Numbered from the stretch's first letter, positions 4,701-59,244 are shown. The stretch: 64,000 nt of DNA from an uncultured Candidatus Saccharibacteria bacterium (GCA_964424265.1 CAYRHX010000005.1:7951-71950), one strand, 5' to 3'. The notes: generated by a model from the sequence alone, not told the origin. Numbers and translations are program-made.

Positions 4701-7568
4701 ATCACATCTTCCGTAGCTGGTTCAGCTTCTCTCGCATATACGTACGACTCTGCAGGGCGGCTCACAAGAGTGACGGGGCCCGCTGGTGCGACAAACTATG
4801 CGTACGATATCAAAGACCGCCTGACTCAGACTACGGATACGTACGGAAATATCATTTCTTACCAATACGACCTCGCAGATAACCTCACGAGGATCACGTA
4901 CCCTGATGGTAAAACAGTTCAAAATCAATTTGACGCGGCAGGCCATCTCACGCAACAAAAAGATTGGACCGGAGGAGTTACGCTTTACACCTACACGGCG
5001 AACGGCGCATTGAGCACAAAAACACTTCCAAATGGAATCTCTGAAGCATACTCCTACGATTCCGCGGGCCGCATCGCAAGCATTGTGTATGGAAATCTCT
5101 CGCAGCCGACTCTGTTCCGTCAAATATTTAGTCGCGATGCGCGAGGTTTTGTATCACGTATTGTCGAAGATGGCTCTACGGTCACAGCACACGCCACAAA
5201 CTACCAATTCGATGCTGCGGGTAAACTCTTAAGCGCGATAGATACCGCGAGCGCTACTTCAACGTACGCCTACGACACAGTGGGTAACATTACCTCCAAT
5301 ACTGCGTCGCGTGTCGATTTCGTACCCACCATAGCCACAACGACAGTGACCGTGTTTAAAGACGCCGCCACGACAACGACGATCATAGCCACCGCAGCGA
5401 CGTCGACAACTGTGTATGCCACGACTACACGTACGTTGGTGCGATCTATTGCACCGACGGTTCCGTACCTTTCCCGATATTTGTTCAACGGCACACTCGC
5501 GTCAAGTGCGAAACGTGCGGATTCGCTTGCACCCTCTCAACTACTGACGGAGAGTACTCGGCTCGCGTCTGGCTCAGGGCGATTTGCGGATGCGAATGGC
5601 ACGTATGTTTTTGACGGCAGCAAGACACAGCTCTCTCTTGCCCTTGTTTATGCTCCCAGCGCTGGTAGCACAACGCTCTCGGCCTGGGTCAAAATGGCAC
5701 CTGGAACGTCAGGCACAATCCTCGGTGCTACCAATAGTTCACCCGCCGGATTTATGCGAATGTACGTCCAGCAGGGAATTTTGCACGGGGATCTAAACTG
5801 GACTTCAGGAAGTAATACGTATGCACTTGTTGCCAGCTCTAGCGCAATAAGAATCGACGACAACGCGTGGCACAAAGTCGATGTCGCGTTTGCCAATTTG
5901 TATCCACCAGCCAATGGCGATATCTTCTCAAATGCCATCTACCTGTATGTTGACGGTGCGCTCGTTTTGACAAAAAAGGGCAACACGGTCAACTACAATC
6001 TTCCTAGTTTTAACTACGGCTGGAAGGTTGGCGCGATGACAAACCCCAACAAGCGCGTAGATAAGTACTTCAAAGGTTCTATCGACGAAGTTGCGATCAC
6101 CAACACCGCGCTGACATCCCCTTCACAAATTCAGGGCCGCTTCGCAGCCGAAGCTACGACATCTCCGATATATATCTGGACTCCTGCCGCTACTACATCA
6201 ACGTCCTACGCGACAACAACTCTCGCCCTGACTCCGACCTCGACGAGTACGACTATTACCAGTATCGCGACGAGCACAGCTACAACTACAGTACCAGCAT
6301 CCACGGTCACCGCAACTGCCCAGAGCTACGCCACAACCACCACTACAGTGGCACCGGTAATTACGAACACGCAGACGTTCCTCGCGACAACTACTGCAAC
6401 TACGACGATCGTGACTCTCACAAGCGTGACCGCTGCAACGACCACAAACACATTTACTATCTCTACCAGCGTGTCCACGACAACTCTTGTTGCAACCCCT
6501 CGCTCGCTCTCAACCTCAAACGCATACTCTGCGGATGACGAATTGCTCCTGTCTGTAACGTCAGGAACTGCGCCGACGGCAACTGTTACTCACACATACG
6601 ATGCGGAGGGAAATTTGAAGTCGACCGCTGGTTCATCTTCCAGGGCGTACTCTTGGACATCTCTCGGACAGCTATCCTCGGTCGCCTCGACCGCTTTCAC
6701 CTACGATGCGTCCGGAAACCGAATCGGGAAGAGCGCGGCGACGACAACCCGATACGTCAACGACGTCCTTGCTCCGAATGCCTTAGTCCTCGTTGAAGCT
6801 AACGCCAGCAATGCTGCAAGCCGCATAAACGTCTGGGGAGGACACGGGCTTATTTCCACAGGGGGAACCGCCACGACAAGCAGGTACTATCCGATAACCG
6901 ATTCCCAAGGGTCTGTCCGATTTCTTTCAGATTCGTCCGGCTCAATCATTCGCGCTTATCAATATGATCCGTATGGCGTCTCCTCAACTTATGCCTCGAG
7001 TGCATCTACTAGCCCGTACCAGTACACCGGTGAAAACCTCGACTCAGAAACCGGCCTTGTCTATCTGAGAGCCCGCTACTACGATCCTGCGACGGGCCGC
7101 TTCATCTCCCGCGACCCCGTGCGCGGCGTCCTCGACAACCCACTAACTCAGAATCCGTATATCTACGCCGGCGACAATCCGATGATGTATAGTGATCCGA
7201 GTGGGGAGCAGGCATTTGCTCTGCCAGGAGCTGGTATTGGATCTTTCTTTGGCCCAGTCGGAACAGCCTGCGGATTCGTCATCGGTGGTATTGCGAGCCT
7301 CGTGATTGTAATATGGGCGGGAAACCAAATTGCTACTTTAAACCTCTCCCAGAGTGGAGCGGGACAAGGAACGCCAAAACCAAGTAATCCGCCATCGGGC
7401 ACAGTACCTATCGATCAAGCAGGATTTCCGCGAGGTACAGCAGATCAGATCAAAAAGATAATCGGGGCTCGTCCGAATGACTGGACAGGTATAGCGCCAA
7501 ATGGCGATATTATTACCGGAACACCAAATGGAGAGGTAATTAATCACGGTCCGATAGAGCCATTCTAA
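1755..7568 (+). CDS. RHS/YD-repeat polymorphic toxin with signal peptide, internal LamG (concanavalin-like) domain, Thr-rich linkers, RHS core end and variable C-terminal toxin tip
   Basis: Numerous YD repeats (YxYDxxGxL type, e.g. YQYNAGHLLKSVTDRAGTRMIDNTYDSSGRVV). LamG-like block around nt 5470-6150. RHS core terminus YQYTGENLDSETGLVYLRARYYDPATGRFISRDPV...NPYIYAGDNPMMYSDPSGE at nt ~7017-7205, followed by a ~120-aa unique tail. Confidence 0.85.
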   Translation: MYSSLFNKRSGRRIAATLLLSLLMQSLAPLLPLTSGSSIAYADTPCGVTTSSGPAITTQYGGVKLDKAATFLANMDDITGAYFDQGRNQIVFVGKTNTTLPEFDKDDLAVAIRAIIFNNAIPAVSIEFKDLNNISAYPTMNVLYYGGIEDTNFGKVLLDADVQLKRYMMGGESGNPVQTAVLGYRSVLARWIENGPDVVRTTGSASRWWISPLTVTLKRDTTSNAFVFDTVAMQVQSAPLMANNDPAWDKAAQDFATQMTQSYDAYAAEMPSFAKAKQLGKITSVIKWLKDNQIATDFQWAKNYQPTFVPTSREVPVMTSGTMRYTSGNYSWDFWIEGGVEYSTPNNYTSDTTGASLQMKVASSAAAPSSTDGVSWTFTSNGQTYNSVAVSADLFRSVGAYAYSETDASLPTTAQVPFSLTRSYSSFATDINNGFGFGWTFMPATLTDALPGIATSCTVPGGYTGSYPYRLAATTPAGRETFTLSCGVGYIPDDPLLFHTKIVPDTAGYLNVVMKDRTFYAFSRFPVNNNFPLYRIGDANAISKITFSYNANYTRVNSMTEAYSGKYITLTYNALDQVSSVVTPSGTLQYGYDANGDLVSATDARGNTTTYQYNAGHLLKSVTDRAGTRMIDNTYDSSGRVVLQTDARNVPRTITYNNTDRSVLWSDPNGRSERTAYDSKARPLQVINAHDATTTFAYDTTSNAPTSIADARGNVSSFAFDAKGNPLSYTTPDGGRTLFTWDSSNNLLQASDQRYIPITGTPKVATYAYDTKGNRTQANVAGISTTNFTYTTQGKVASITDPRGNITRFTYNSSGLPLTIQDPLGRITTYTYDSAGRVTQITDPLGVVTNMTHDANGNRLSVSTPAGAATYTYDANDRLLSTTDPAGALVRRTYSPSGNLTSVVDPLGASTAYGYDSYGNVVQSVDPLSRVTTFSYDSMNRETLYRTPGGKSWTTSYDAVGNPIAQATPTGTQTAVFDSLSRITSSVAGSASLAYTYDSAGRLTRVTGPAGATNYAYDIKDRLTQTTDTYGNIISYQYDLADNLTRITYPDGKTVQNQFDAAGHLTQQKDWTGGVTLYTYTANGALSTKTLPNGISEAYSYDSAGRIASIVYGNLSQPTLFRQIFSRDARGFVSRIVEDGSTVTAHATNYQFDAAGKLLSAIDTASATSTYAYDTVGNITSNTASRVDFVPTIATTTVTVFKDAATTTTIIATAATSTTVYATTTRTLVRSIAPTVPYLSRYLFNGTLASSAKRADSLAPSQLLTESTRLASGSGRFADANGTYVFDGSKTQLSLALVYAPSAGSTTLSAWVKMAPGTSGTILGATNSSPAGFMRMYVQQGILHGDLNWTSGSNTYALVASSSAIRIDDNAWHKVDVAFANLYPPANGDIFSNAIYLYVDGALVLTKKGNTVNYNLPSFNYGWKVGAMTNPNKRVDKYFKGSIDEVAITNTALTSPSQIQGRFAAEATTSPIYIWTPAATTSTSYATTTLALTPTSTSTTITSIATSTATTTVPASTVTATAQSYATTTTTVAPVITNTQTFLATTTATTTIVTLTSVTAATTTNTFTISTSVSTTTLVATPRSLSTSNAYSADDELLLSVTSGTAPTATVTHTYDAEGNLKSTAGSSSRAYSWTSLGQLSSVASTAFTYDASGNRIGKSAATTTRYVNDVLAPNALVLVEANASNAASRINVWGGHGLISTGGTATTSRYYPITDSQGSVRFLSDSSGSIIRAYQYDPYGVSSTYASSASTSPYQYTGENLDSETGLVYLRARYYDPATGRFISRDPVRGVLDNPLTQNPYIYAGDNPMMYSDPSGEQAFALPGAGIGSFFGPVGTACGFVIGGIASLVIVIWAGNQIATLNLSQSGAGQGTPKPSNPPSGTVPIDQAGFPRGTADQIKKIIGARPNDWTGIAPNGDIITGTPNGEVINHGPIEPF
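7008..7203. repeat. direct repeat copy 1 (RHS core 3' end); ~85% identical to 8205..8399, last ~65 nt near-identical
   Basis: The nucleotide string ctaactcagaatccgtatatctacgccggcgacaatccgatgatgtatag occurs in both copies. Confidence 0.75.
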
Positions 7569-7571
7569 AAT

Positions 7572-8015
7572 ATGCATCCATACGAATTCAACATCTCATT
7601 CAGGTTAACTCATCCTACAGAAGATTTGACACAGATTTACCAGAAGTTAAGTCTCGTGTCTGACTTTTTACCCCGACGAATTTGGAAAGCTGGAGATGAG
7701 CGCAAATCTCAACAAGGCAAGCGACTGGGGGGATACTATGAAAAGTCCTATTGCTATTTTGATCTTAATACCGGCTTGCAGAAAAGCACTTCACAATCAC
7801 TGACATCCGTCATAGAGAACATACTGACAAGGCTCACTCCTTTTAAGGATGTACTTGAAAAATTCTGTGGAAACGCTGGCCAGCTTGAATTCTTTATAGG
7901 TTTGTATGTTGTCGAAAACGCCGGGGAAACTCTACCTGTGACTTTACTCAAAAAACTCTCAGATTTTCAAATCGGTTTAGCGCTCGATATATATCCCCCT
8001 GGAAAGAACGAATAA
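7572..8015 (+). CDS. putative immunity protein for RHS C-terminal toxin 1
   Basis: Small AT-rich ORF immediately 3' of the toxin tip, in the canonical rhs toxin-immunity arrangement. No recognisable domain. Confidence 0.4.
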   Translation: MHPYEFNISFRLTHPTEDLTQIYQKLSLVSDFLPRRIWKAGDERKSQQGKRLGGYYEKSYCYFDLNTGLQKSTSQSLTSVIENILTRLTPFKDVLEKFCGNAGQLEFFIGLYVVENAGETLPVTLLKKLSDFQIGLALDIYPPGKNE

Positions 8016-8056: not shown

Positions 8057-8815
8057 TTGGATAACATGAAGCGCCGTGCGGTTCTCACACTCCTTATAGC
8101 ATCAATCGCATTCTCGCCACTCACTGCGCTAGCCACAGGCGTAGCTGTGACACCCTTTGGCTGTGGCTATCTGGCCGCAATGGCTGCGCCATCGAGCACC
8201 TCAACCACTCCGTACCTCTACACCGGTGAAAATCTCGACTCTGAAACAGGTCTCGAATACCTCCGCGCTCGCTATTACGATCCGACAACTGGTCGCTTTA
8301 TCTCCCGCGACCCTGTCCGCGGCACCCTCGACAACCCACTAACTCAGAATCCGTATATCTACGCCGGCGACAATCCGATGATGTATAGCGATCCGAGCGG
8401 GAAGGTCTTCTTCGCCCCGCTTCTGATAATTGGCGGATTAGCACTTGCCACATTCCTGACAAATCCCATAATCGAATCGCCCTGTGCTGTAATGAATCCT
8501 ACTCCCGAAGATTTCGCTAAGGCTCAGGCATTGGAAACAGGATTCTTTGTCGCGGGATTTGTAGCACCTGGAGGTGCGCTGTCGAAAGGATTCAACCTTG
8601 TAATAAAACATCCACACGCGATACAACACTTGGTTGAGGGTATTACTTCAGAAATGTTAGATGCAGCTATCAGACGTGACGTCGCCGAAAAAGGAGCGAC
8701 ACTATTGGGTCAGACATTGCAGCGGGAAGTTAAAGTTGCGGGCGAGACTTTCATCTACCGTATACACACATGGGCAGAAGGACAAGTTAACGTGGGTACC
8801 TACTTCCTAAAGTAA
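8057..8815 (+). CDS. orphan RHS core-end + alternative C-terminal toxin cassette with its own start and signal-peptide-like N-terminus
   Basis: YLYTGENLDSETGLEYLRARYYDPTTGRFISRDPVRGTLDNPLTQNPYIYAGDNPMMYSDPSG, followed by a different ~140-aa tail. N-terminus MKRRAVLTLLIASIAFSPLTALA. Confidence 0.65.
   Translation: MDNMKRRAVLTLLIASIAFSPLTALATGVAVTPFGCGYLAAMAAPSSTSTTPYLYTGENLDSETGLEYLRARYYDPTTGRFISRDPVRGTLDNPLTQNPYIYAGDNPMMYSDPSGKVFFAPLLIIGGLALATFLTNPIIESPCAVMNPTPEDFAKAQALETGFFVAGFVAPGGALSKGFNLVIKHPHAIQHLVEGITSEMLDAAIRRDVAEKGATLLGQTLQREVKVAGETFIYRIHTWAEGQVNVGTYFLK
8205..8399. repeat. direct repeat copy 2 (orphan cassette), homologous to 7008..7203
   Basis: Nucleotide-level identity with the RHS core 3' end. 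Confidence 0.75.
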
Positions 8816-9778: not shown

Positions 9779-10036
9779 TTGCATATGAAAATAACTGCTA
9801 TCCAAAAATGGGGGAACAGCTATGCGGTGCGTATCCCAAAGACCACCGTGCGCAAACTTAATTTGAAGGCGGGTCATACCGTAGAAATTCGAGAGATGGA
9901 TCACGGCCGAGCATTTTCTATTACTCCGGTGCCGACTGATACAGACTCATTCGATGAGTTGGTTGAGAGAATTACGAAAGAAAATACTCACGGACCAACA
10001 GATTGGGGCAAAGCGATGGGGAAAGAAGTATGGTAG
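9779..10036 (+). CDS. mazE: MazE/PemI-type antitoxin (AbrB/SpoVT fold)
   Basis: KWGNSYAVRIPK motif. Overlaps the downstream toxin start (ATGGTAG). Confidence 0.75.
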   Translation: MHMKITAIQKWGNSYAVRIPKTTVRKLNLKAGHTVEIREMDHGRAFSITPVPTDTDSFDELVERITKENTHGPTDWGKAMGKEVW

Positions 10037-10493: not shown

Positions 10494-11438
10494 ATGCAGG
10501 TCATGCAACGACTTTTTACGGGTCTTCAGCCTTCGGGATCACTCCACATCGGCAACTACTTCGGCGCACTCAAGCAGACTGTTGAGTTACTCAAGGATGC
10601 CGATGGTCTCGTGATGATCGCGGATTATCATGCACTTACCACGCTCAAGGATGTACCGGGACTCCGAAAAAATATTGGCGATGTGGTGCGCGATTATGTG
10701 GCTGTCGGCGTTGACCCACAAAAGGCAATAATTTTCCAACAATCCTCAAATCCGGCGCATACAGAGCTTGCGTGGATTTTTGATTGCCTCGTCACTGTCC
10801 CGTTCCTCATGCAAGCACATGCCTACAAAGATAAAGTAGCGAAAGGGTTGGAGGCCAACGCGGGGCTCTTCACCTACCCAATGCTCATGGCGGCCGACAT
10901 TTTGCTCTACGACACCGATATTGTGCCTGTGGGGGCAGATCAGCGGCAGCACGTCGAGTACGCGAGGGAAGCGGCTACCAAGTTTAACAACGCATTCGGC
11001 GAGACGTTTAAGCAGCCGCAGGAAAAGATTCTTGATACTGTCGCCGTGGTCCCCGGTACTGACGGTAAAAAAATGAGCAAGAGCTATGGCAACACTATTC
11101 CACTCTTCGGGACAAGAGAGGAGATACAGAAAGCGGTGATGAGCATTGTCACCGATTCGAATGCCGAGAGCCCTGAGAATGTGTACAACATCCATTCTCT
11201 TTTCAAGAGTAGGCAGGAACTGTCTATTTTGTATTCGGAAAACAAAGGTAAATACAAAGCTCTTAAAGACGCGCTGGTAGAAGATGTCGAGGCTTTGATC
11301 GGTCCCATGCGCGCACGACGAGAGAGCCTCTCCGATGCTGATGTGAAAGAGATACTGAGAGATGGGGGAGAGCGAGCTCGCGCTCAGGCAGATAAAAAAA
11401 TGATCGACGTACGCAAGGCGGTAGGTGTAACATTGTAG
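10494..11438 (+). CDS. trpS: tryptophanyl-tRNA synthetase
   Basis: GLQPSGSLHIGNY (HIGH region) and KMSKS. Size ~314 aa. Confidence 0.9.
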   Translation: MQVMQRLFTGLQPSGSLHIGNYFGALKQTVELLKDADGLVMIADYHALTTLKDVPGLRKNIGDVVRDYVAVGVDPQKAIIFQQSSNPAHTELAWIFDCLVTVPFLMQAHAYKDKVAKGLEANAGLFTYPMLMAADILLYDTDIVPVGADQRQHVEYAREAATKFNNAFGETFKQPQEKILDTVAVVPGTDGKKMSKSYGNTIPLFGTREEIQKAVMSIVTDSNAESPENVYNIHSLFKSRQELSILYSENKGKYKALKDALVEDVEALIGPMRARRESLSDADVKEILRDGGERARAQADKKMIDVRKAVGVTL

Positions 11439-27928: not shown

Positions 27929-30900
27929 TTAATCCTGAACGACGAAGTTGACCAATCTCCCGGGCACGACAATCGTCCGCAAGACATTTTTCCCATCCAG
28001 TCGCGCTTTTACTATCTTGCGCGCGGCATCTTCAAGAACAGTCCTATCGGCTCCAATATCCACCTCCACGGTACCGCGTGTTTTACCGTTGATTTGTACG
28101 GCAATGGTAAGGATTTCACTCTTGAGAAGAGTCTCGTCGTACCGCGGCCACTTTTCGAGGTGGATAGATTTTTTGTGATCCACCCTCCAGAGTTCTTCTG
28201 CCATGTGCGGCGCAAATGGCGCAATAAGCCGCAAGAAGATCCCCCACTGCAACCTCCCTATCTTCCCCTCTTTCTCGATGGCATTGAGGAAAATCATTAA
28301 TTGGCTGATGCCGGTATTAAATTTGAGCGCGCCTATGTCTTCGCCAACTTTTTTTATCGTTTTATGCAGTAAGCCGTTGAGCCCAGGAATGTCGTTCTTC
28401 TCGACTGCTGATCGCATTCGCCATACTCGCTCAATGAACCGTCGAACGCCGACGACGCCATCTGGATTCCAGGGATAATTCGAAACCTCATTGTAAGGGC
28501 CGATAAAGGCAAGGTACATGCGCACGGTGTCGGATCCGAGCAATGCGACGACTTCATCTGGATCTATCACATTACCGCGCGATTTGCTCATCTTCTGACC
28601 ATCAGGACCCATAATGAGGGAGCGGTTCATGCGTCGGGTATACGGCTCTTTATCTTTGACAAGGCCTAGGTCATACATCGCCTTCTGCCAAAAGCGACTG
28701 TACAAAACGTGCATTGTCGTATGTTCTGCTCCTCCAGAGTACAAATCGATCGGCATCCATTTTGCGAGCTTCTTAGGATCCGCAAATTGCTTTTTATTAT
28801 TCGGATCCGTATAGCGTTGAAAATACCAAGAAGAATCGACGAAAGTATCAAATGTGTCAGTCTCCCGCTCGGCGCCCCCCTTACACTGCGGACACCTCAC
28901 CTTGACCCACTTCGTCACCTTAGCAAGTGGTGACTTGCCACTCCCTTCGGGCAAATAATCTTTCACCTCGGGGAGTTTGACCGGTAGCTTACGATCCTCG
29001 ACGGCAACGGGCCCGCATGTGGGACAGTGGATGATCGGGATCGGCACACCCCAATATCGCTGACGAGAAACGATCCAATCGCGGAGCTTGTATGTTGTCT
29101 TTTTGCGACCGAATTTTTCTACGATTTTGAGCGCCGCCGCTTCACTCGCTAACCCTGAGAACTCTCCTGAATCGACGAGAATACCCTCCTTGGCATAACA
29201 CGCGTTGCCGATGACTCGACACCACGCAATTCGCATGTCCTCTCGGTTGATGAAATTATCCATCTCATCCTTGGATAGCCATGAGACTTCGTGCTCCGCT
29301 TTTTCCTCAGGTGATATCTCATTTTGCAAACCGTTCTCGAGCTTGAAAAGGAGAGGTGTGTAATACACGGATGTATTTCTTTTCCGCACGTCGCTGAAGT
29401 ATTTGCTGTGGATGGCGCCACCGAGTTGTCTGACAAAAACCGCATTTGAATAACCCGTTTCCTCGGCAATCTCTCGCTTGGCTGCAGACACGGGATCCTC
29501 TCCGTCGTGGATACCACCCGAGACGAACCCCCGTACATCAGTGGGTTTGTAGAGGACGGCCTGATATTTCTCCTCCGACCAATGTTTGACAACGGCGAGG
29601 ATGGACCGTCGAGCAAAGAACTCCTCGTCCGCATGAACCGCATCAAGCCCTCTCGTCTGCACCACAAGAGGTTCGATTACCTCGTTAATCGGCAGGTTGA
29701 ACTTCGTCGCAAACGCGTGATCGCGCTCATCATGGGCAGGCACCGCCATAATCGCACCCGTCCCGTAGTGTCCGAGCACATAATCAGCGACCCACACGGG
29801 GATCTTCTTCCCACTTGCAGGATTGATTGCTTTCACACCATTTAACTCAACACCGGACTTTTCTTTCTGATCGGCTTGCCGCTCGAGATCTGTTTTCCGC
29901 TTCGCTTTTTCAACATACTCCTTGATCTCATCTTTATTTTTCAATATGTTGTGCTTTCCGTCTACCGCACGAATGACCCATGGGTGCTCCGGAGCAAGAA
30001 CGAGGTACGTCGCGCCAAAGAGTGTATCAGCGCGAGTCGTAAATACTCGAACCGTCGGTCGCAGCCACATAAGAACATCGGGCTCGGTGTCACCCGTGAA
30101 ATGGGGTTTATTCGATGTGCTAGTTATGCTTTGTGTACCGAGAAGCTTCGCAAGTGCCTCTGTCTGAGCATCGGAAATAGCGTGATCGCGCGGGTCGTGG
30201 AGAACGGTCACTGAGCGAACGTTTTTTCGGATCGCTTCCCCGTCAAATTTCCATGTCCATTTTTTTTCAAAACTCCTCTTTTTATCTTTAAAATTTGTAT
30301 CGACGAAGCCACCCACAGTCACGAGGCGCGCAAGCGGCTTTGTGAGTCGCTCCGCGACTTTGAGGGCAAGCACTGCCCCAAGGCTGTGTCCCACAAGAAC
30401 AGTTCGTTCGTCGTATTTTGTCGTGCGAAGAGCAAACTCCACTTGCTCTGCTTCTGATGGATTGCCCGAATTGGGTAGCCGAGGCACGAGTACTTCATGA
30501 CCCATGGCTTCGAGTTCTTTTTTTACCCATTGCCACCGAGGTAGATCGGGAGAGCCTTCAAAACCATGGAAAATTACAAATTTGTACTTCTCGCCAGTTT
30601 CAATCAGGAAATCTATCTCCGCGCCCTCCGAGCGGCCGATCCAATTTCGCTGTGACTCCTTGATTTGCTCGGGCCAGTTTAGATCTTTGAGATCATCGAT
30701 CAAACGATCCGCGTAATCGGTGATTTTGATATTCCACTGGAGCATCTTCTTTTGCACCACATCGCTATCACAACGCTCACACTTCCCCGCAACGACCTGC
30801 TCATTAGCAAGCACTGTCTTATCTTTCGGACACCAATTTACGGCTGTGTTTTTGCGATACGCCAATCCTGCTTTGAAAAATTGCAAAAAAAGCCACTGAG

Positions 30901-31306
30901 TCCACTTGTAGTACGCTGGATCACAGGTAACGACCTCTCGCGACCAGTCGAAGGATGTGCCCATCGAACGTATCTGATTTTTCATGTACTCGATATTTTT
31001 GAGAGTCCATGTACGTGGATTGATCTTGTTTTTGATCGCGGCATTTTCTGCAGGAAGACCGAAAGCGTCAAAGCCTATCGGATACAATACATTCTTACCC
31101 TGCATTCGCATCGCTCGCGCCAATATATCGGGTACCGCAAATGCGTACCAATGGCCCACATGGAGATTCCCCGAGGGATATGGAAATTCGACCAGAAGGT
31201 ACGAGTTGTCCCTGCCTTTTACTGAGTCGGGAGTTTTGTAGATTTTGTCTTTTTCCCACTGCTTTTGCCACTTTTTCTCAACCTTTGTATGATCGTAATT
31301 CGACAT
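27929..31306 (-). CDS. leuS: leucyl-tRNA synthetase with two inserted domains (alpha/beta serine hydrolase ~nt 30061-30604; Nudix ~nt 29191-29674)
   Basis: HVGH, NWIGRSEGAEIDF, TTRADT, AVPAHDERD, Zn cluster CPTC...CPQC, KMSKS, and a conserved C-terminal domain. Extra segments carry GHSLG and GGIHDGEDPVSAAKREIAEETGY. Confidence 0.9.
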   Translation of the reverse strand: MSNYDHTKVEKKWQKQWEKDKIYKTPDSVKGRDNSYLLVEFPYPSGNLHVGHWYAFAVPDILARAMRMQGKNVLYPIGFDAFGLPAENAAIKNKINPRTWTLKNIEYMKNQIRSMGTSFDWSREVVTCDPAYYKWTQWLFLQFFKAGLAYRKNTAVNWCPKDKTVLANEQVVAGKCERCDSDVVQKKMLQWNIKITDYADRLIDDLKDLNWPEQIKESQRNWIGRSEGAEIDFLIETGEKYKFVIFHGFEGSPDLPRWQWVKKELEAMGHEVLVPRLPNSGNPSEAEQVEFALRTTKYDERTVLVGHSLGAVLALKVAERLTKPLARLVTVGGFVDTNFKDKKRSFEKKWTWKFDGEAIRKNVRSVTVLHDPRDHAISDAQTEALAKLLGTQSITSTSNKPHFTGDTEPDVLMWLRPTVRVFTTRADTLFGATYLVLAPEHPWVIRAVDGKHNILKNKDEIKEYVEKAKRKTDLERQADQKEKSGVELNGVKAINPASGKKIPVWVADYVLGHYGTGAIMAVPAHDERDHAFATKFNLPINEVIEPLVVQTRGLDAVHADEEFFARRSILAVVKHWSEEKYQAVLYKPTDVRGFVSGGIHDGEDPVSAAKREIAEETGYSNAVFVRQLGGAIHSKYFSDVRKRNTSVYYTPLLFKLENGLQNEISPEEKAEHEVSWLSKDEMDNFINREDMRIAWCRVIGNACYAKEGILVDSGEFSGLASEAAALKIVEKFGRKKTTYKLRDWIVSRQRYWGVPIPIIHCPTCGPVAVEDRKLPVKLPEVKDYLPEGSGKSPLAKVTKWVKVRCPQCKGGAERETDTFDTFVDSSWYFQRYTDPNNKKQFADPKKLAKWMPIDLYSGGAEHTTMHVLYSRFWQKAMYDLGLVKDKEPYTRRMNRSLIMGPDGQKMSKSRGNVIDPDEVVALLGSDTVRMYLAFIGPYNEVSNYPWNPDGVVGVRRFIERVWRMRSAVEKNDIPGLNGLLHKTIKKVGEDIGALKFNTGISQLMIFLNAIEKEGKIGRLQWGIFLRLIAPFAPHMAEELWRVDHKKSIHLEKWPRYDETLLKSEILTIAVQINGKTRGTVEVDIGADRTVLEDAARKIVKARLDGKNVLRTIVVPGRLVNFVVQD

Positions 31307-31382
31307 AGAAAGAGCCTACCATATACTCGCACAACCAAAAACCTCTTCTATCTCGAGTCCGAAGAGAAGACACACCTGTCTA

Positions 31383-31533
31383 GAGCATGTTTGAAAACGC
31401 TTAACTGGAGTGAGAGACGGTATTCCCGAGGAATCCCCGCAGCACGAGGAGTGCGAGGATGGAGGATTTTCCAGCAGGAAAATCCGGTTTCCGAGGGAAT
31501 ACCGTCTCGAAGCGAAGGTTTCCAAATATGCTC
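31383..31533. repeat. 151-bp TIR element copy A (MITE-like / structured RNA), TA-flanked in a CTAG context
   Basis: gagcatgtttgaaaacgc...ggtttccaaatatgctc with internal inverted repeats. Three copies in the window. Confidence 0.75.
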
Positions 31534-32516
31534 TAGATACTTTTTGTTTTCGAGTACGGCGGATACCGCTCAGGATCTATAGTACGCAAGAAGCACACCT
31601 CGCCACTACCGTGACTCCACGTGGAGTCTTCCAGCCCAACACCCTTTTCTCCCGTACCCATAGGACCTGCGGGTACAGGTCCTTGTATCGCGCGAACCAT
31701 CTCCCCGGTATTCAACTGGCCATCGGCATTAAATACTGCACAGAGCTTAAACGTCGTACTTGTTACTTTCTCGTATCGATACGCATCGCCTGATTGCGGA
31801 TCTCGCGGCATCACAAACCCGCTCAATGGATCGTTGAGATCGGCAAGTGTTATGGGCAGCTTTTCCTTCTGTTGCCAATAATTCACAATCTGGTACTGAA
31901 TGCTGACTAGATCGTTGATCCTTTGTTCGTCGAGGCGATGGAGACGCGCCTGCGCTGGAGTCCCCACGATAAAGAACCCCGCGACGACGGTGAAGATAAC
32001 GAGCGCAAGAGTGCCCCCCGCTACGTATTGATTGCGCACGGGAAACTTCTGCCAATAGTTCCAAATGTCAGCGAGGAAGTGCATGAGTCCGGTCCCCGCG
32101 ACGAAGAGCACGACCAATGACTTGAGCAAGAAGCTCGCGGTGATCTCCCATCCATTGAGAAATGTGTACAGCACATAGATAAGATCCCCGACAATCATTG
32201 CGCCCGCGAGAAATACGGTGAGGTAGAGCGCCCACCTGCGCACCCACGTATCAAGTCGTGACGAATCCTTTGCAATATCGCGACGGATAAGAAACATGAG
32301 AGCCAGAAAGGCGGGTGTAAGCACAATGAGCGAGGCCATCTCCCAGCTGATACCGCTCTGATATGGATCTGATGAGTAGTATTGAAGCGGGTCGGGCATT
32401 GCATAGTCGACGTAATCCCATACGAGCGCAATGTAATTGACCACACCTACATACAGTGCTATGACAGCACCGGCCCAGAGAAAGAAATCCTTTGGAGTGA
32501 CTTTTGATTGATTCAT
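31533..32516 (-). CDS. polytopic membrane protein of unknown function
   Basis: Multiple TM helices. Stop codon TAG is formed at the right end of repeat copy A. Confidence 0.5.
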   Translation of the reverse strand: MNQSKVTPKDFFLWAGAVIALYVGVVNYIALVWDYVDYAMPDPLQYYSSDPYQSGISWEMASLIVLTPAFLALMFLIRRDIAKDSSRLDTWVRRWALYLTVFLAGAMIVGDLIYVLYTFLNGWEITASFLLKSLVVLFVAGTGLMHFLADIWNYWQKFPVRNQYVAGGTLALVIFTVVAGFFIVGTPAQARLHRLDEQRINDLVSIQYQIVNYWQQKEKLPITLADLNDPLSGFVMPRDPQSGDAYRYEKVTSTTFKLCAVFNADGQLNTGEMVRAIQGPVPAGPMGTGEKGVGLEDSTWSHGSGEVCFLRTIDPERYPPYSKTKSI

Positions 32517-33667: not shown

Positions 33668-34600
33668 TTATTCTCGTTCCAATATCCGATAACCCTCCAA
33701 AATAGCATCGCACACGAAATCTTCCAGCAAGCTCGGATCGTCTTTCATCTGCGCCTTGTTCAGGTACGTGGTATACAATCGTCGCTTCTCCTGCAGAACA
33801 ACTACGGGCGCAAAATTCTCACGGAGCGCCATTGCATGCATGAGCAATCTCCCGATGCGACCATTGCCGTCACCAAAGGGATGGATCTTCTCGAATCTCC
33901 AGTGAATATGTGCGACGTGAGCGACGACATCCTTGTCCGATTGCTTGATGTCATGAACGAGTTCTTCCATGAGCTCCGGCACTTTCTCATAGTTGGCCGT
34001 TGGTACATGTGCACCCATAATACGAACGCTGTGATTTCGATAGATGCCCGCGTCCGAGCGGATGGCATTCATGAGAATGCTGTGCAATTTCAAGATCAAC
34101 TCTTCATCGATCGGTTTTTTGCTATTAAGATGCTCAAACAGATATTGGAGGGCTGCTTGATGATTTTTTGCTTCCAACTGTTCTACAAGGCTCTTGTTAG
34201 GCAGTGCTACGTTCTCAAAAAGAATGGCGGCCGTGTCACCCTCTGAAAGCGTACTGCCCTCGATTCGATTGGAGTTATACGTCAGCGACAAGTAAAACTG
34301 ATCGCGGATGTCGGGATTATCCAAAATCTCCTTAAGAACAGCTTTATGCTTTCTGCCGGTTGCAGCGACGAGCTGCTTTTTGGTCTCAAGCACGGTCTCT
34401 GGAATTTGCTTCTCGCCCGAATAGTCTTTGTACAACGTCTCGATCTTCTCCTGCATTTTAGGGCGCGGAGTGGCCTTGTCATTAATCCAGCGGTTCAATG
34501 CGGCAAACGTCACACCCAAACGCGCGGCTAATTCCGCTTGCGTGAGGCCCGACAGTTTCTGCAGACTCTCCAATTGCTCCTGTATGGTCATGCGCCCCAC
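33668..34600 (-). CDS. Fic/Doc family protein with N-terminal XRE-type HTH
   Basis: HTH LSGLTQAELAARLGVTFAALNRW. Fic motif HPFGDGNGRIGR. N-terminal inhibitory-type motif SNRIEG. Confidence 0.8.
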   Translation of the reverse strand: MGRMTIQEQLESLQKLSGLTQAELAARLGVTFAALNRWINDKATPRPKMQEKIETLYKDYSGEKQIPETVLETKKQLVAATGRKHKAVLKEILDNPDIRDQFYLSLTYNSNRIEGSTLSEGDTAAILFENVALPNKSLVEQLEAKNHQAALQYLFEHLNSKKPIDEELILKLHSILMNAIRSDAGIYRNHSVRIMGAHVPTANYEKVPELMEELVHDIKQSDKDVVAHVAHIHWRFEKIHPFGDGNGRIGRLLMHAMALRENFAPVVVLQEKRRLYTTYLNKAQMKDDPSLLEDFVCDAILEGYRILERE

Positions 34601-34728
34601 TTTACCAAACTATATATAGTTTGTCAAAAGGACACAATTTTATGTAGTTGCGTTTCCCCGGATGACCCTTGACTGAGGCACCGAAATGTGCTTGTATCTT
34701 TGCTCGGGCTCGACCGAGCCCTTGAACA

Positions 34729-35508
34729 TTGAAAGGATCCGGAAAAATGTTGATCACCGAACTCGCAACTTCGTCGAGGCGCTTCCTCGACGATTTCATG
34801 GCAGCCAATCCGCTGCCGAATGGCGACGAGGGTCTCGCCATTTTCTCCTCCTTCGGGGGGAGATATCAATGGATCGAGGGGGCGCGAGTCCCCTCCAACA
34901 GAGGCGGAGTCTTCCGCGAGGAGGCCCCGGATGGCCTGTATCGGGCCGGCGCCTGCGGGAAGATCGTGGCCCCGCAGGGCCTGCTCGTCGTCTCGGACGA
35001 GCGGAAGAAGTATTTCAAACCCCTCCCCTCAGGATACGCAAAGTACTCGGAGGGGCGAAATCTCATCGAAACCTGGCTCCGGGAGCTGGGGGAGGAGGCT
35101 TTCGTATTTGAACTAAAACCCAAGCACGAACACCGGAGGCGACTCGTCCCTCCAGTGTACACCAGCTCATTGAGCTGGTCTCTCACGTGCGAGGGGCTGG
35201 CAATGAGGGTTGGAGGAATTCGCCTGGAGGGCCAGTTCACTTCGTTGGGGATTGCTTTCAACGAGGTCGAGCGGTGCGTGGAGTACCACGCCCGCTGGGA
35301 TCTCTCGGAACTCGCCCTCGCCGACTCGCTCTCGGTCTTCTACGACGAAGATGAGTGGTACGCTGGCGGCCGGCCGGGGATTCCGGTCGTCGCGCTCGAC
35401 CATTCAGGCAACGTCGCCGGCTGGTTCGCCGGCCAGCAGGGATTCGTCCCTGCGAAGGGGTGGAATCTCCACCCCGCCGTCCGGAAATTCCTCGATCTAC
35501 CGGCCTGA
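34729..35508 (+). CDS. hypothetical protein in a high-GC (~60%+) segment, likely horizontally acquired
   Basis: Abrupt GC rise with Arg/Gly/Ala-rich codon usage. Overlapping multi-frame ORFs typical of high GC. Confidence 0.5.
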   Translation: MKGSGKMLITELATSSRRFLDDFMAANPLPNGDEGLAIFSSFGGRYQWIEGARVPSNRGGVFREEAPDGLYRAGACGKIVAPQGLLVVSDERKKYFKPLPSGYAKYSEGRNLIETWLRELGEEAFVFELKPKHEHRRRLVPPVYTSSLSWSLTCEGLAMRVGGIRLEGQFTSLGIAFNEVERCVEYHARWDLSELALADSLSVFYDEDEWYAGGRPGIPVVALDHSGNVAGWFAGQQGFVPAKGWNLHPAVRKFLDLPA

Positions 35509-35601
35509 GCCGGAGCGATCGAAGAGACCTTCTAAGCGCCGCAAATTTTCGAAAGGAGTTTGCGGCGTGACTATTTTATATTCCCTCGCCAAAGGAGTTT
35601 A

Positions 35602-35752
35602 GAGAATGCTTGAAAAAGCTTAACCGGTGCGAGAGGCGGTGTTCGCGAGTAATCCCCGCAGCACGAGGAGTGCGAGGATTGAGGATTTTCCAGCAGGAAA
35701 ATCCGGGTTCCGAGGGGATACCGTCTCGAAGCGAAGGTTTGGAAACATGCTC
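35602..35752. repeat. 151-bp TIR element copy B (left end degenerate)
   Basis: gagaatgcttgaaaaagc...ggtttggaaacatgctc. Confidence 0.7.
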
Positions 35753-36345
35753 TAGATTCCCAACCTTCCAAGCTCGGACACTTCCTGGAGCCAGCGAGTT
35801 TTGCGATGTTCCGGAATGTTTTCAGACGGGCCAAACCACGTAGAGCGCACGGAGAATCCGGCAAACCATAGTATCCCCCATTTGAGCTGCGCATTTACGT
35901 TACCCGGCAAAAATCGTACGAGCCATGGTACCGTGCCGCTTGTGAAAATCGTCCGCGCGGTTTTCCCGCGAAATAGCCGGTGCCAAAATATGGTCCGGTC
36001 CCCGTGTTTCGTTTTGATATATCGAAAAGCGGAGCCGGGCAACCATGCGCGATCAAAAAGCCCTTTCAAAAGCGCGGGCATCCCCACCCACCACACCGGA
36101 TACACGATCACAAAATGGTCGGCAGCTGTGATGAGTTGTTGGAATCGGACGAGGTCGGGCTCCAGCGCTTGCATCGCCCGATATCCCTTGTGAAGTATAG
36201 GATCAAACTGCATTTCTCCGATATTCATCCTGTCGACAGAGTGACCTGCCGCTTGTGCAGCGGCACAGTAAGCATCCGCAATCTCTCCACAAAATCCAGA
36301 TTTATCAGGGTGCCCCAAAAGCACCAGTATCTTTTTTGCGCCCAT
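35752..36345 (-). CDS. flavodoxin-like fold NAD(P)H-dependent oxidoreductase (NQO/MdaB-like)
   Basis: KILVLLGHPDKSGFCGEIADAY ... FVIVYPVWWVGMPALLKG. Stop TAG formed at repeat copy B. Confidence 0.6.
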   Translation of the reverse strand: MGAKKILVLLGHPDKSGFCGEIADAYCAAAQAAGHSVDRMNIGEMQFDPILHKGYRAMQALEPDLVRFQQLITAADHFVIVYPVWWVGMPALLKGLFDRAWLPGSAFRYIKTKHGDRTIFWHRLFRGKTARTIFTSGTVPWLVRFLPGNVNAQLKWGILWFAGFSVRSTWFGPSENIPEHRKTRWLQEVSELGRLGI

Positions 36346-58134: not shown

Positions 58135-58155
58135 CCGGCACAGTATACAACTCTA

Positions 58156-58306
58156 GAGCATGTTTGAAAACGCTTAACCGGTCTGAGAGATGGTATTTCC
58201 GAGGAATCCCCGCAGTACGATGAGTGCGAGGATTGAGGATTTTTCAGCTGGAAAATCCGGTTTCCGAGGGAATACCGTCTCGAAGCAGAGGTTTCTAAAC
58301 ATGCTC
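58156..58306. repeat. 151-bp TIR element copy C
   Basis: gagcatgtttgaaaacgc...ggtttctaaacatgctc flanked by c-ta...ta-g. Confidence 0.75.
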
Positions 58307-59244
58307 TAGAGCGTCAATGTCTCTCCGTAAGCGGTCTGATAACGTTGGCCCAACTCAGGGATTGTGAACGTGTGATTCTGCGTCCCGTAGTGTTCAACGG
58401 CGTATGCAGCGACGGCGCTCGCCAGTTGCGTAGCTCCCCGCATCGCATATCCGCGCAAGGTCCCCGCGATGAACCCCGCACGATATGCATCTCCCGCGCC
58501 AGTCGGATCAACGACTTGCGCAACAGTGACCGCCTTCACGATCTCTTCCCCCCCCCTTGTCACGATTCGCGAACCCTTCTCTCCCAATGTCACGATGAGC
58601 GCAGCGGCTTTCCCGACGATCGTCGCCTCATCCCATCCCGTCTTTGCAAGGATAAGACTCAGTTCATAATCATTCACAAACAATCCTTTGCAGCCTGTCA
58701 TTCCATCGCGTAGTTGATCAGCGGAAAGTGCGGGGATTTGCTGGCCCGGATCGTAGAAATATTCGATTCCCTGCTCCCGATAGTATTCGGGCAAACGCGC
58801 CATGTCTTCTACACAGCCTGCACCTATGATCGCGCAGCGCGCTTCCTCAGTCGGAGGTAGCGGGATGTAGGGTGTCCCTCCCGAAGCCATTGAAAATGCT
58901 GAGATCTGGTTGTTCGCCCGATCAGTCATGATGAAAGCGGACGATGTGGATCCTTGCGTATCGATCTTGATTGAGATCGGATCGATCTTGAGTGAACGCA
59001 GATGGCCAGCGTATCGCTCAAAATCAGAGCCCGCTGTCGCAATGATGTGTGGCGATTCCCGCAGTAACGCGAGATTGTATCCGATATTCCCAGCCGTCCC
59101 GCCAAAATTTTCGGTGAATCCCTGCACGGCAAAACTCACGTTTATATTGTGAAGCTTGTCTGCGACAAAATGCTCTTTGAAAAGCCCAGGGAAATCCATG
59201 ATGCGATCGTACGCTATGGATCCTGAGACAAGTATGCGAGACAT
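58306..59244 (-). CDS. PfkB-family carbohydrate/nucleoside kinase (adenosine kinase-like)
   Basis: GGTAGNIGYNLALL and DPTGAGDAYRAGF motifs. Adjacent to ahcY. Stop TAG formed at repeat copy C. Confidence 0.8.
   Translation of the reverse strand: MSRILVSGSIAYDRIMDFPGLFKEHFVADKLHNINVSFAVQGFTENFGGTAGNIGYNLALLRESPHIIATAGSDFERYAGHLRSLKIDPISIKIDTQGSTSSAFIMTDRANNQISAFSMASGGTPYIPLPPTEEARCAIIGAGCVEDMARLPEYYREQGIEYFYDPGQQIPALSADQLRDGMTGCKGLFVNDYELSLILAKTGWDEATIVGKAAALIVTLGEKGSRIVTRGGEEIVKAVTVAQVVDPTGAGDAYRAGFIAGTLRGYAMRGATQLASAVAAYAVEHYGTQNHTFTIPELGQRYQTAYGETLTL

What the first reader, a model, noticed from the sequence alone, without database searches (positions are those of the whole stretch)
31383..31533. 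Three copies of a 151-bp terminal-inverted-repeat element (MITE-like or structured RNA)
Copies at 31383-31533, 35602-35752 and 58156-58306 are all the same length, in the same orientation, and ~85-90% identical. Each begins gagcatgtttgaaaacgcttaac and ends gtttc(c/t)aaa(c/t)atgctc, a 16-20-bp TIR. Each also contains nested internal inverted repeats (gagacggtattccc / gggaataccgtctc; ggattttcc-agcagg-aaaatcc), so the whole unit can fold into a long branched hairpin. No transposase is present in the window. The element is either a non-autonomous MITE or a repeated structured RNA (REP/BIME-like regulatory element or sRNA). Copies A and C sit in short spacers inside minus-strand operons, so they would be co-transcribed.
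Basis: seen in the sequence. Interest (0 to 1): 0.75.

Follow-up and report, generated by a model that had tools for sequence, protein, structure and literature searches.

The report
Stop-codon-dwelling MITE of an IS5 transposon
The three 151-bp repeats are real copies of a small non-coding "jumping" DNA element (a MITE) that belongs to a large, undescribed family in ultra-small Parcubacteria (CPR) bacteria, shares its ends with an IS5-type transposon, and almost always sits exactly inside the stop codon of a gene, which it rebuilds.

Summary
Three same-orientation copies (86-91% identical) of a 151-bp element have 16-bp terminal inverted repeats (TIRs) and a TA duplication.

It is a MITE. Related Kaiserbacteria-like genomes keep the same gene order but have empty sites at all three positions. 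A metagenome scan with the TIR found at least 40 further elements of 69-187 bp, with the same TIR and unrelated interiors, in Kaiserbacteria, Yanofskybacteria-like and other Paceibacterota contigs. It also found one 906-bp element with the same TIRs and TA/CTAG target. That element encodes an IS5-family DDE transposase (NCBIfam 234 bits; cutoff 110). The likely mobiliser is therefore IS5-type, not IS630. No transposase lies on the 77-kb source contig.

Two features go beyond an ordinary MITE:
- 36 of 43 copies sit in the TA of a gene's stop codon, against 27% of free non-coding CTAG sites. The GAG termini rebuild a TAG stop.
- The interior is a long branched hairpin kept by compensatory changes (23 of 45 pairs), with an unexplained strand polarity.

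Verdict: a new member of a known kind. Interest is moderate.

The parts
31383..31533 (+). MITE copy A (151 bp), between the DUF5671-protein gene and the LeuRS gene
   Evidence: The site is empty in L047, L049 and L050.
31381..31382 (.). TA target-site duplication, left of copy A (context CTAG)
31534..31535 (.). TA target-site duplication, right of copy A. With element base 31533 it forms the TAG stop (31533-31535, minus strand) of the DUF5671 gene 31533-32516.
31383..31398 (+). Left TIR of copy A, GAGCATGTTTGAAAAC. It is identical over 16/16 nt to both TIRs of the IS5-family element in L165.
31518..31533 (+). Right TIR of copy A, GTTTCCAAATATGCTC. It matches the IS TIR at 14/16 nt.
31414..31427 (+). 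Left arm of the inner stem of copy A (GAGACGGTATTCCC). It pairs with 31495-31508.
   Evidence: The stem covaries across the family.
31495..31508 (+). Right arm of the inner stem of copy A (GGGAATACCGTCTC).
31464..31485 (+). Apical hairpin GGATTTTCC-AGCA-GGAAAATCC of copy A. The AGCA loop is conserved in the family while the stem sequence is completely different.
35602..35752 (+). MITE copy B (151 bp, the most decayed copy), downstream of the flavodoxin-like gene and in a convergent spacer
   Evidence: The flavodoxin gene ends at the same residue in L047, L049 and L050.
35600..35601 (.). TA duplication, left of copy B (context TTAG). The inferred pre-insertion stop codon was TAA.
35753..35754 (.). 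TA duplication, right of copy B. With base 35752 it forms the TAG stop (35752-35754, minus strand) of the flavodoxin-like gene 35752-36345.
58156..58306 (+). MITE copy C (151 bp), between the PfkB-family (adenosine-kinase-like) gene and the S-adenosylhomocysteine hydrolase gene
   Evidence: The site is empty in L016 and L017.
58154..58155 (.). TA duplication, left of copy C (context CTAG)
58307..58308 (.). TA duplication, right of copy C. With base 58306 it forms the TAG stop (58306-58308, minus strand) of the PfkB gene 58306-59244.
58142..58170 (-). Promoter-like hybrid site: TTTTCA inside the left TIR of copy C, a 17-nt spacer, then TATACT in the flank, ending 7 nt before the AdoHcyase ATG at 58134. 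This is a consensus match only.
   Evidence: The TATACT motif is also present in the relatives' empty sites.
31337..31371 (-). Native terminator-like hairpin plus T-run downstream of copy A. It is not part of the element and is present in the relatives.
   Evidence: sequence comparison.

Best explanation
The three repeats are copies of a non-autonomous DNA transposon (MITE). Each is 151 bp, non-coding, and bounded by 16-bp terminal inverted repeats GAGCATGTTTGAAAAC. Each inserted into a TA dinucleotide (usually within CTAG), and that TA is duplicated.

The element belongs to a large MITE superfamily of Parcubacteria/Paceibacteria (CPR bacteria). The superfamily's ends are identical to those of a 906-bp IS5-family insertion sequence encoding a 270-aa DDE transposase. 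The inferred mechanism is cut-and-paste mobilisation in trans by such a transposase, which recognises the TIRs.

Both termini start with G(AG). Insertion into the TA of a TAA or TAG stop codon therefore recreates a TAG stop in either orientation. The upstream ORF stays intact, and the whole downstream spacer (terminator, promoter, ribosome-binding site) stays attached to the next gene. In these tightly packed genomes that is almost the only harmless landing place, which is why copies accumulate there.

Once inserted, the element is read through as part of the 3' end or intercistronic part of the mRNA. It can then form a roughly 150-nt branched hairpin (-50 to -85 kcal/mol here).

What is shown: repeats, TIRs, TA duplication, empty sites, family size, the IS5 partner with identical TIRs, stop-codon occupancy and hairpin covariation.

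What is inferred: trans-mobilisation by that transposase family, selection rather than targeting as the cause of the stop-codon bias, and any effect of the hairpin on the transcript.
For: Repeats and TIRs are shown.

Empty sites. The PfkB-AdoHcyase spacer in L016 and L017 reads cgctCTAGcc.. and cgctCTAGcg.. followed by gtataCTG. The window reads cgctCTAG[element]agttgtatactg. The DUF5671-LeuRS spacer is 68-81 nt in L049 and L050, against 73 nt in the window once the element is removed, with the same terminator and -10 layout. The flavodoxin gene ends at the same residue in three relatives.

Family. A metagenome scan for CTAGAGCATGTTTNNAAAC hit its 120-locus limit. 40 unique inverted TIR pairs lie 69-187 bp apart with unrelated interiors. 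Flanks show that only TA is duplicated (CTAG, CTAA and CTAC targets). The base before TA is C in 27 of 36 unbiased ends.

Partner. L165 1266-2175 has perfect TIRs and TA within CTAG. Its single ORF matches Pfam DUF4096 (5e-29) and DDE_Tnp_1 (1e-22), and NCBIfam 'IS5 family transposase' at 233.6 bits against a cutoff of 110. The same IS end sits at three contig ends. Annotated IS5-family relatives (47-50% aa identity) have similar GAGnnTGTTTnnAAA-type TIRs.

Hosts. Neighbouring proteins are named Ca. Kaiserbacteria and Ca. Paceibacterota, and one clusters with a Ca. Yanofskybacteria protein.

Stop codons. 33 of 40 metagenome copies, plus 3 of 3 here, end at the stop of an ORF of at least 80 codons. 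In-frame ends score 39/80 against 19/160 in the other frames (p = 2e-9). Only 27% of free non-coding CTAG sites are stop codons (p = 2e-14).

Hairpin. 94.7% of cells are paired. 23 of 45 pairs carry compensatory changes, against 12.6 +/- 1.8 in shuffles (0 of 500 reached the observed value) and 3-7 in slid controls.
Against: No transposase with these TIRs was seen in this organism. Only the 77-kb contig could be read, and tblastn found nothing on it. The partner comes from another Paceibacterota contig, and similarity between it and the window element is firm only over the TIRs (16/16 nt). Beyond them there is a weak subterminal resemblance.

All population samples carry copies A and C (and the contigs that reach it, copy B), so no presence/absence polymorphism within the species was seen.

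A dsDNA cut-and-paste mechanism explains neither the conserved junction nucleotides and AGCA loop nor the strand polarity of G.T pairs.

The stop-codon excess could reflect active targeting rather than selection. The gene calls behind the baseline are crude.
Confidence: 0.82

Rival explanations
1. The element is an IS630/Tc1-mariner-derived MITE. An IS630-type DDE transposase would recognise the TIRs and insert at TA within CTAG.
For: The TA duplication and CTAG preference are the hallmark of IS630/Tc1/mariner elements (PMC2170065). RUP, a known bacterial MITE, is tied to IS630-Spn1 (PMC2229807).
Against: The only coding element found between these exact TIRs carries an IS5-family transposase. 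Annotated IS5-family relatives share the GAGnnTGTTT..AAA terminus. No IS630-type gene was seen next to any of the 120 TIR loci.
Confidence: 0.04
2. The element is primarily a functional structured RNA or single-stranded DNA module, for example a 3'-end stabiliser, processing site, terminator/insulator or protein-binding hairpin. It would be kept by selection for its fold, with transposition only the means of spread.
For: Compensatory changes occur in 23 of 45 pairs. Junction nucleotides and the AGCA loop are conserved on top of wholly different stems. One strand folds better in 13 of 13 members. G.T outnumbers A.C at paired positions, 21 positions to 6. 9 of 10 stem transitions among the window copies keep a wobble pair on that strand. 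The TIR of copy C supplies a -35-like hexamer 17 nt from a pre-existing TATACT.
Against: The better-folding strand is sense to the flanking gene in about 8 cases and antisense in about 12, so host-mRNA function has no consistent orientation. Copies B and C have lost much stability. No Rfam family matches. No internal promoter or terminator consensus was found. Arm-to-arm correction of DNA palindromes could mimic covariation. Sites are empty in close relatives, so the host does not need the element there.
Confidence: 0.12
3. The element is a REPIN-like element moved as single-stranded DNA by a RAYT/Y1 (HUH) transposase. The 'TA duplication' would then be the cleavage or target dinucleotide rather than a true duplication.
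For: The hairpin has an intrinsic strand polarity. RAYT-like Y1 transposase genes exist in related genomes (L049, L050, L053). The palindromic CTAG ends make the duplication formally ambiguous.
Against: Those RAYT genes are flanked by different repeats (TATAGAGGCGACGCC.. and GTCCCCGTTAG), not by this TIR. No Y1 gene recurs next to the TIR loci. A DDE transposon with identical TIRs and the same TA flanks exists.
Confidence: 0.02

Closest known systems
IS5-family insertion sequences of the IS427/IS1031 type, and MITEs derived from IS5-family elements (the MITEAba12/ISAba12 pairing is the published logic for assigning a parent)
   Same: The partner element is about 0.9 kb. It has one DDE transposase (DUF4096 + DDE_Tnp_1; NCBIfam IS5 model), TIRs starting with GAG, and a short duplication inside a CT(N)AG palindrome. 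As for MITEAba12, the parent is assigned from TIR identity plus the same duplication, and identity is essentially confined to the TIRs (PMC6382973).
   Different: The duplication is 2 bp (TA in CTAG). The two annotated relatives examined show 3 bp (TNA in CTNAG). Placement in the IS427 versus IS1031 subgroup rests on my memory of ISfinder definitions and was not tested. The partner was not found in the same genome. MITEAba12 makes 9-bp duplications and has no stop-codon habit.
Correia/NEMIS elements of Neisseria and ERIC/IRU elements of enterobacteria
   Same: They are 100-160 bp, with TIRs, TA at the termini and a TA duplication. They are co-transcribed with neighbouring genes, their transcripts fold into one long stem-loop, and variants differ by internal segments (PMC2229807).
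   Different: There is no sequence similarity, and the host phylum is different (CPR/Parcubacteria). Here a transposase-bearing element with the same TIRs was found. Here 84% of copies occupy a stop codon. RNase III processing, IHF sites and promoter activity are demonstrated for Correia but untested here.
RUP of Streptococcus pneumoniae (IS630-Spn1-dependent MITE)
   Same: It is a small TIR element inserted at TA, with TIRs matching those of a resident IS.
   Different: The partner family is IS630, not IS5. RUP preferentially hits IS elements rather than stop codons.
REP/BIME/REPIN elements with RAYT transposases
   Same: They are abundant intergenic hairpin-forming repeats, often just after genes. 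Their hairpins are kept by compensatory change.
   Different: REPINs have no target duplication and are tied to a Y1 transposase flanked by the same repeats. That was tested here and not met.

Membership tests
Bacterial MITE (non-autonomous TIR transposon) | Small (<300 bp) with no coding capacity of its own | tested here: met
   The element is 151 bp. A six-frame peptide search of 5.8 billion proteins gave no hit.
Bacterial MITE (non-autonomous TIR transposon) | Terminal inverted repeats | tested here: met
   The 16-bp TIRs match at 13-16 of 16 positions across the six ends.
Bacterial MITE (non-autonomous TIR transposon) | Target-site duplication, shown by comparing filled and empty sites | tested here: met
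   TA flanks all three copies. Orthologous empty sites carry a single stop-codon TA in five related genomes.
Bacterial MITE (non-autonomous TIR transposon) | Multiple copies at non-orthologous sites | tested here: met
   There are 3 copies on the 77-kb contig and at least 40 unique family members in other contigs.
Bacterial MITE (non-autonomous TIR transposon) | TIRs shared with an autonomous element that encodes a transposase | tested here: met
   The 906-bp element in L165 has TIRs identical over 16/16 nt to the left ends of copies A and C. It lies in another Paceibacterota contig.
Bacterial MITE (non-autonomous TIR transposon) | Autonomous partner present in the same genome (current mobility) | not testable with these tools
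   Only the 77-kb contig of this organism could be read, and it carries no transposase.
IS5 family (partner element) | DDE transposase matching IS5-family models above the curated cutoff | tested here: met
   NF033580 scores 233.6 bits against a cutoff of 110. PF13340 and PF01609 score above their gathering thresholds.
IS5 family (partner element) | Short duplication in a CT(N)AG-type target and GAG-type termini, as in related annotated IS5 elements | tested here: met
   L165 has TA within CTAG. The Nostoc and Martelella relatives have TTA and TCA within CTNAG, with GAGGGTGTTTATAAA and GAGCCGGATTTAAAAG ends.
IS630/Tc1-mariner-derived MITE | TA target duplication | tested here: met
   This feature is shared with the IS5 subgroup, so it is not discriminating.
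IS630/Tc1-mariner-derived MITE | IS630-type transposase between matching TIRs | tested here: not met
   The only transposase found between these TIRs is IS5-type. None of the other TIR loci has a transposase.
REP/REPIN-RAYT system | Y1 (RAYT) gene flanked by the same repeat, and no target duplication | tested here: not met
   RAYT-like genes in L049, L050 and L053 are flanked by other repeats. The element has TA duplications.
Known structured RNA family (Rfam 15) | Covariance-model match | tested here: not met
   There is no hit at gathering score. The best E-value is 0.45, at 15.7 bits against a gathering score of 48.
Correia/ERIC-like RNA-active MITE | Co-transcription with, and effect on, the neighbouring mRNA | not testable with these tools
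   No transcript data are available. Only the position (inside a stop codon, upstream of a terminator or of the next gene) and the predicted folds are known.

The most novel reading that the evidence does not exclude
The family may not be a passive passenger. It could be a stop-codon-homing, structurally constrained mobile module. On this reading its branched hairpin (conserved junction and AGCA loop, one favoured strand) is selected as a single-stranded nucleic acid. That could be a transposition intermediate or cofactor, or a portable 3'-end/insulator RNA that streamlined CPR genomes have come to rely on. The 84% stop-codon occupancy would then reflect active targeting rather than survivorship.
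Probability: 0.12. Interest if true: 0.75.

Novelty: new member of a known kind. Interest (0 to 1): 0.48.

Why it matters
CPR/Patescibacteria genomes are about 1 Mb, densely coded, and usually described as poor in mobile DNA. A full-text search of the open-access library found no paper describing MITEs in this group. This work defines a MITE superfamily spread across several Parcubacteria lineages and identifies its probable IS5-type driver.

It also shows a simple way for a transposon to persist where there is almost no spare DNA. The element lands in the stop codon and rebuilds it.

Practical consequences:
- These 70-190-bp hairpin repeats break short-read assemblies. Logan contigs end about 30-45 nt inside them.
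- They change stop codons (TAA to TAG at copy B).
- They can place a -35-like hexamer in front of downstream genes.

The conserved fold and its strand polarity give a concrete, testable question about what constrains MITE interiors.

Tried and rejected
- Rfam at gathering and permissive thresholds found nothing at the element.
- A genome-contig scan with the 20-mer left end gave only a chance hit in a Lachnospiraceae MAG.
- The first metagenome scan, with a 22-mer from the core, gave zero hits, so this exact subfamily is absent from that collection.
- A six-frame peptide search for spurious ORFs gave no hits.
- blastn against plasmids found nothing.
- A viral-contig scan with the TIR gave 21 chance hits. 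An apparent 543-nt 'pair' (L034/L114 and relatives) lies in phage genes.
- Nine gut-metagenome loci with the TIR 17-mer are a chance match upstream of a ZIP transporter.
- ORFs next to single-TIR loci (RNase Y, a protease, a dehydrogenase, a permease and others) are not transposases.
- I first favoured IS630 because of the TA/CTAG target. I rejected it when L165 showed an IS5 transposase between the same TIRs.
- The integron attC, IS110 bridge-RNA, retron and IS200/IS605 readings do not fit. Only the 153 nt are inserted (not a cassette), the flanks share no extended target motif, and no recombinase or reverse transcriptase is associated.
- The RAYT association was tested and not found.
- Transcription- or replication-linked deamination does not explain the strand asymmetry. 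It predicts the opposite strand here, and the favoured strand does not follow gene direction.
- Hypothetical proteins in the window gave no transposase signal.

Full report
**1. The observation**

- All three are 151 bp and lie on the same strand.
- They align without gaps. Identity is 86-91% over the 159-nt unit that includes the palindromic TCTAGA ends.
- A 20-mer from the left end and a 22-mer from the core each occur three times, against 0.01 expected by chance.
- A profile built from the wider family finds no fourth copy in the window.
- None lies in the 13 kb of the source contig beyond the window.
- Copies A and C have the quoted termini. Copy B is more decayed.
- Each copy folds into a long branched hairpin far more stable than shuffled sequence. 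The z-score is -11.9 for A, but only -4.6 for B and -7.3 for C.

**2. Organism and context**

Flanking proteins and their closest homologues place the contig in Patescibacteria/CPR, near Candidatus Kaiserbacteria. The same sequence occurs in ENA assemblies ERZ27247817/20/30 and in Logan assemblies of ERR3094293-6. The Logan contigs repeatedly end about 30-45 nt inside the elements. That is typical of a repeat in the assembly graph. It hints at further copies that could not be retrieved.

All three copies lie immediately after a minus-strand gene:
- Copy A follows the DUF5671-protein gene.
- Copy B follows a flavodoxin-like gene.
- Copy C follows a PfkB-family kinase gene.

In each case the gene's TAG stop codon is made of the flanking TA plus the element's terminal G.

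**3. Mobility: empty sites**

Relatives with 72-77% identical PfkB or LeuRS proteins keep the gene order.

Site C:
- The two relatives read ...cgctCTAGcc-gtatatactg and ...cgctCTAGcg-ctgtatac.
- The window reads ...cgctCTAG[AGCATG...CATGCTCTAG]agttgtatactg.

Site A:
- Two relatives have a stop codon (TAG in L049, TAA in L050), then a terminator-like hairpin with a T-run, then a GAGTATGAT box, in spacers of 81 and 68 nt. L047 also ends the gene at TAA and lacks the element, but its spacer carries a separate insertion at the LeuRS 5' end.
- The window has the same layout in 73 nt once 153 nt are removed.

Site B:
- The flavodoxin gene ends at the same residue in three relatives.
- Removing the element leaves TAA.

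All three are therefore insertions into the TA of a stop codon, with TA duplicated. At B the stop changed from TAA to TAG.

**4. The family**

The exact core is absent from the metagenome collection, and the left-end 20-mer is absent from 185,579 species-representative genomes. A scan for the TIR alone (CTAGAGCATGTTTNNAAAC) hit the 120-locus limit.
- 40 unique loci carry two inverted TIRs 69-187 bp apart.
- Their interiors fall into several unrelated groups, and all are hairpin-like.
- Their flanks show that only TA is duplicated (targets CTAG, CTAA, CTAC). On ends free of ascertainment bias, the base before TA is C in 27 of 36.
- Neighbouring proteins are named Ca. Kaiserbacteria and Ca. Paceibacterota, and one clusters with a Ca. 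Yanofskybacteria protein.
- One host contig (481,726 nt) has the same length as the longest contig recorded for a named Kaiserbacteria protein.
- The closest relative of the window element is L100 (154 nt). It comes from a genome whose neighbouring protein is 71% identical to one on the window's contig.

**5. The partner**

L165 (contig Ga0209542_10060539) positions 1266-2175 is a 906-bp element plus its TA duplications.
- It has perfect TIRs GAGCATGTTTGAAAACCC and sits in a CTAG.
- Its single 270-aa ORF matches Pfam DUF4096 and DDE_Tnp_1. It matches the NCBIfam 'IS5 family transposase' model NF033580 at 233.6 bits, against a cutoff of 110.
- The same IS end (80/80 nt) lies at the ends of three other contigs. 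One of them carries the first 123 residues of the transposase.
- Its neighbouring gene is named Ca. Paceibacterota.
- The same metagenome yields many of the MITEs, including L100.
- Annotated IS5-family transposases in Nostoc, rhizobia and Streptomyces are 47-50% identical.
- Two of those elements have TIRs GAGGGTGTTTATAAA and GAGCCGGATTTAAAAG, and 3-bp duplications in CTNAG.

The TIR type and target palindrome are therefore IS5-like. TA duplication is also the rule for IS630/Tc1/mariner (PMC2170065), but no IS630-type gene was found at any TIR locus. Assigning a MITE to a parent by TIR identity and equal duplication is the standard argument (PMC6382973).

**6. Stop-codon occupancy**
- Of 40 unique metagenome copies, 33 have at least one end whose terminal TAG closes an ORF of 80 or more codons.
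- In-frame ends score 39/80, against 19/160 in the other two frames (Fisher p = 2e-9).
- With the window copies the total is 36 of 43.
- In 369 kb of the same loci, free non-coding CTAG sites are stop codons in only 25 of 91 cases, or 27% (binomial p = 2e-14).
- CTAG is itself 2.3-fold under-represented in the window.

I attribute the excess mainly to survivorship. Insertion at the stop codon's TA preserves the ORF, because either end supplies the G of TAG. It also leaves the short spacer's signals next to the downstream gene. Active targeting is not excluded. The baseline rests on crude ORF calls.

**7. Structure**

Thirteen members of the window's subfamily, from at least four divergent groups, align with a common architecture:
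- the TIR stem;
- an AACC/GGTT stem;
- a 17-pair inner stem;
- a small side hairpin;
- an apical hairpin with a conserved AGCA loop.

RNAalifold predicts 45 pairs, of which 23 carry compensatory double changes. On those pairs 94.7% of cells are paired. Shuffles give 12.6 +/- 1.8 such pairs (0 of 500 reach 23), and slid controls give 3-7. Among the three window copies alone there is no double change.

The fold has a polarity:
- The strand reading TIR-GCTTAACCGG... folds 4.5-13 kcal/mol better in all 13 members.
- G.T outnumbers A.C at paired positions, 37 cells to 16 and 21 positions to 6.
- 9 of 10 stem transitions among the window copies preserve a wobble pair on that strand.
- The favoured strand does not follow the direction of the flanking gene. 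In the window it is antisense to all three upstream genes.

Long stem-loop transcripts are a known property of bacterial MITEs (PMC2229807). The polarity and the conserved junction are not explained by a dsDNA cut-and-paste mechanism or by host-mRNA function, so I leave them as open observations.

**8. Likely consequences here (inferred)**
- Copy A is transcribed with the DUF5671 gene, ahead of its native terminator.
- Copy C lies between an adenosine-kinase-like gene and the SAH hydrolase gene.
- Copy C's TIR places TTTTCA 17 nt upstream of a pre-existing TATACT that ends 7 nt before the ATG. This is a consensus match only.
- Copy B lies between convergent genes. It sits at the edge of a roughly 2.1-kb segment (HTH-Fic plus a hypothetical gene) that the relatives lack.

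**9. Verdict**

The finding is real, and the MITE reading is right. The partner family is IS5 rather than IS630. The element is a new member of a known kind. It has two features worth following up: the stop-codon niche and the constrained, polar hairpin.

Noticed in passing
window 27929-31306 (-): The leucyl-tRNA synthetase is 1125 aa, with an alpha/beta-hydrolase domain and a NUDIX domain inserted in it. More than 100 Kaiserbacteria/Parcubacteria homologues share the same architecture, so it is a lineage trait.
   Followed up: partly
window 33668-35508: An HTH-Fic gene and an opposite-strand 253-aa hypothetical gene form a roughly 2.1-kb segment between the flavodoxin and YchF genes. Relatives L047 and L050 lack it. 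MITE copy B sits at its edge.
   Followed up: partly
L017 ~10946-11010; L016 ~9885-9966: The relatives with an empty site C each carry a different small inverted-repeat insert in the same 30-nt PfkB-AdoHcyase spacer. In L016 the insert (CCCCGTTAGAAGC...GCTTCTAACGGGG, with TGGA duplicated) interrupts the start of the AdoHcyase gene and supplies a new in-frame ATG.
   Followed up: partly
L049 15652-16323; L050 15732-16403; L053 8983-9654: These are RAYT-like Y1 (HUH) transposase genes. Two are syntenic, between the S41 peptidase and ribosomal protein L9 genes. They are flanked by REP-like repeats unrelated to the MITE's TIR. The L053 repeat GTCCCCGTTAG resembles the L016 insert.
   Followed up: partly
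L047 ~7900-8000: An insertion or duplication of about 100 nt lies at the 5' end of the LeuRS gene, giving two successive MKKYDH starts.
   Followed up: no
L067, L072, L077, L099, L101, L147, L166: These loci carry 26-nt palindromes made only of two overlapping TIRs (TAGAGCATGTTTnnAAACATGCTCTA). They are minimal elements or deletion remnants of the family.
   Followed up: no
window 6996-7208 and 8192-8404: A 213-nt direct repeat (84% identical) lies at and beyond the 3' end of the 1937-aa RHS-repeat gene (1755-7568). It may mark alternative toxin-tip cassettes.
   Followed up: no
window, whole: CTAG occurs 59 times against about 138 expected. TCTAGA occurs outside the elements only 3 times, all in coding sequence.
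   Followed up: yes
L002, L004, L005, L007, L015, L020, L023-L025: Logan assemblies of four sequencing runs all break about 30-45 nt inside the elements, at 30-mers not shared among copies A, B and C. This suggests further copies or variants in the community.
   Followed up: partly
window 31381-31535, 35600-35754, 58154-58308: The element plus one TA is 153 nt, which is 3 x 51. The duplicated stop-codon TA therefore lies in the same reading frame as the first. The gene frame also meets an internal stop after 48 codons.
   Followed up: no
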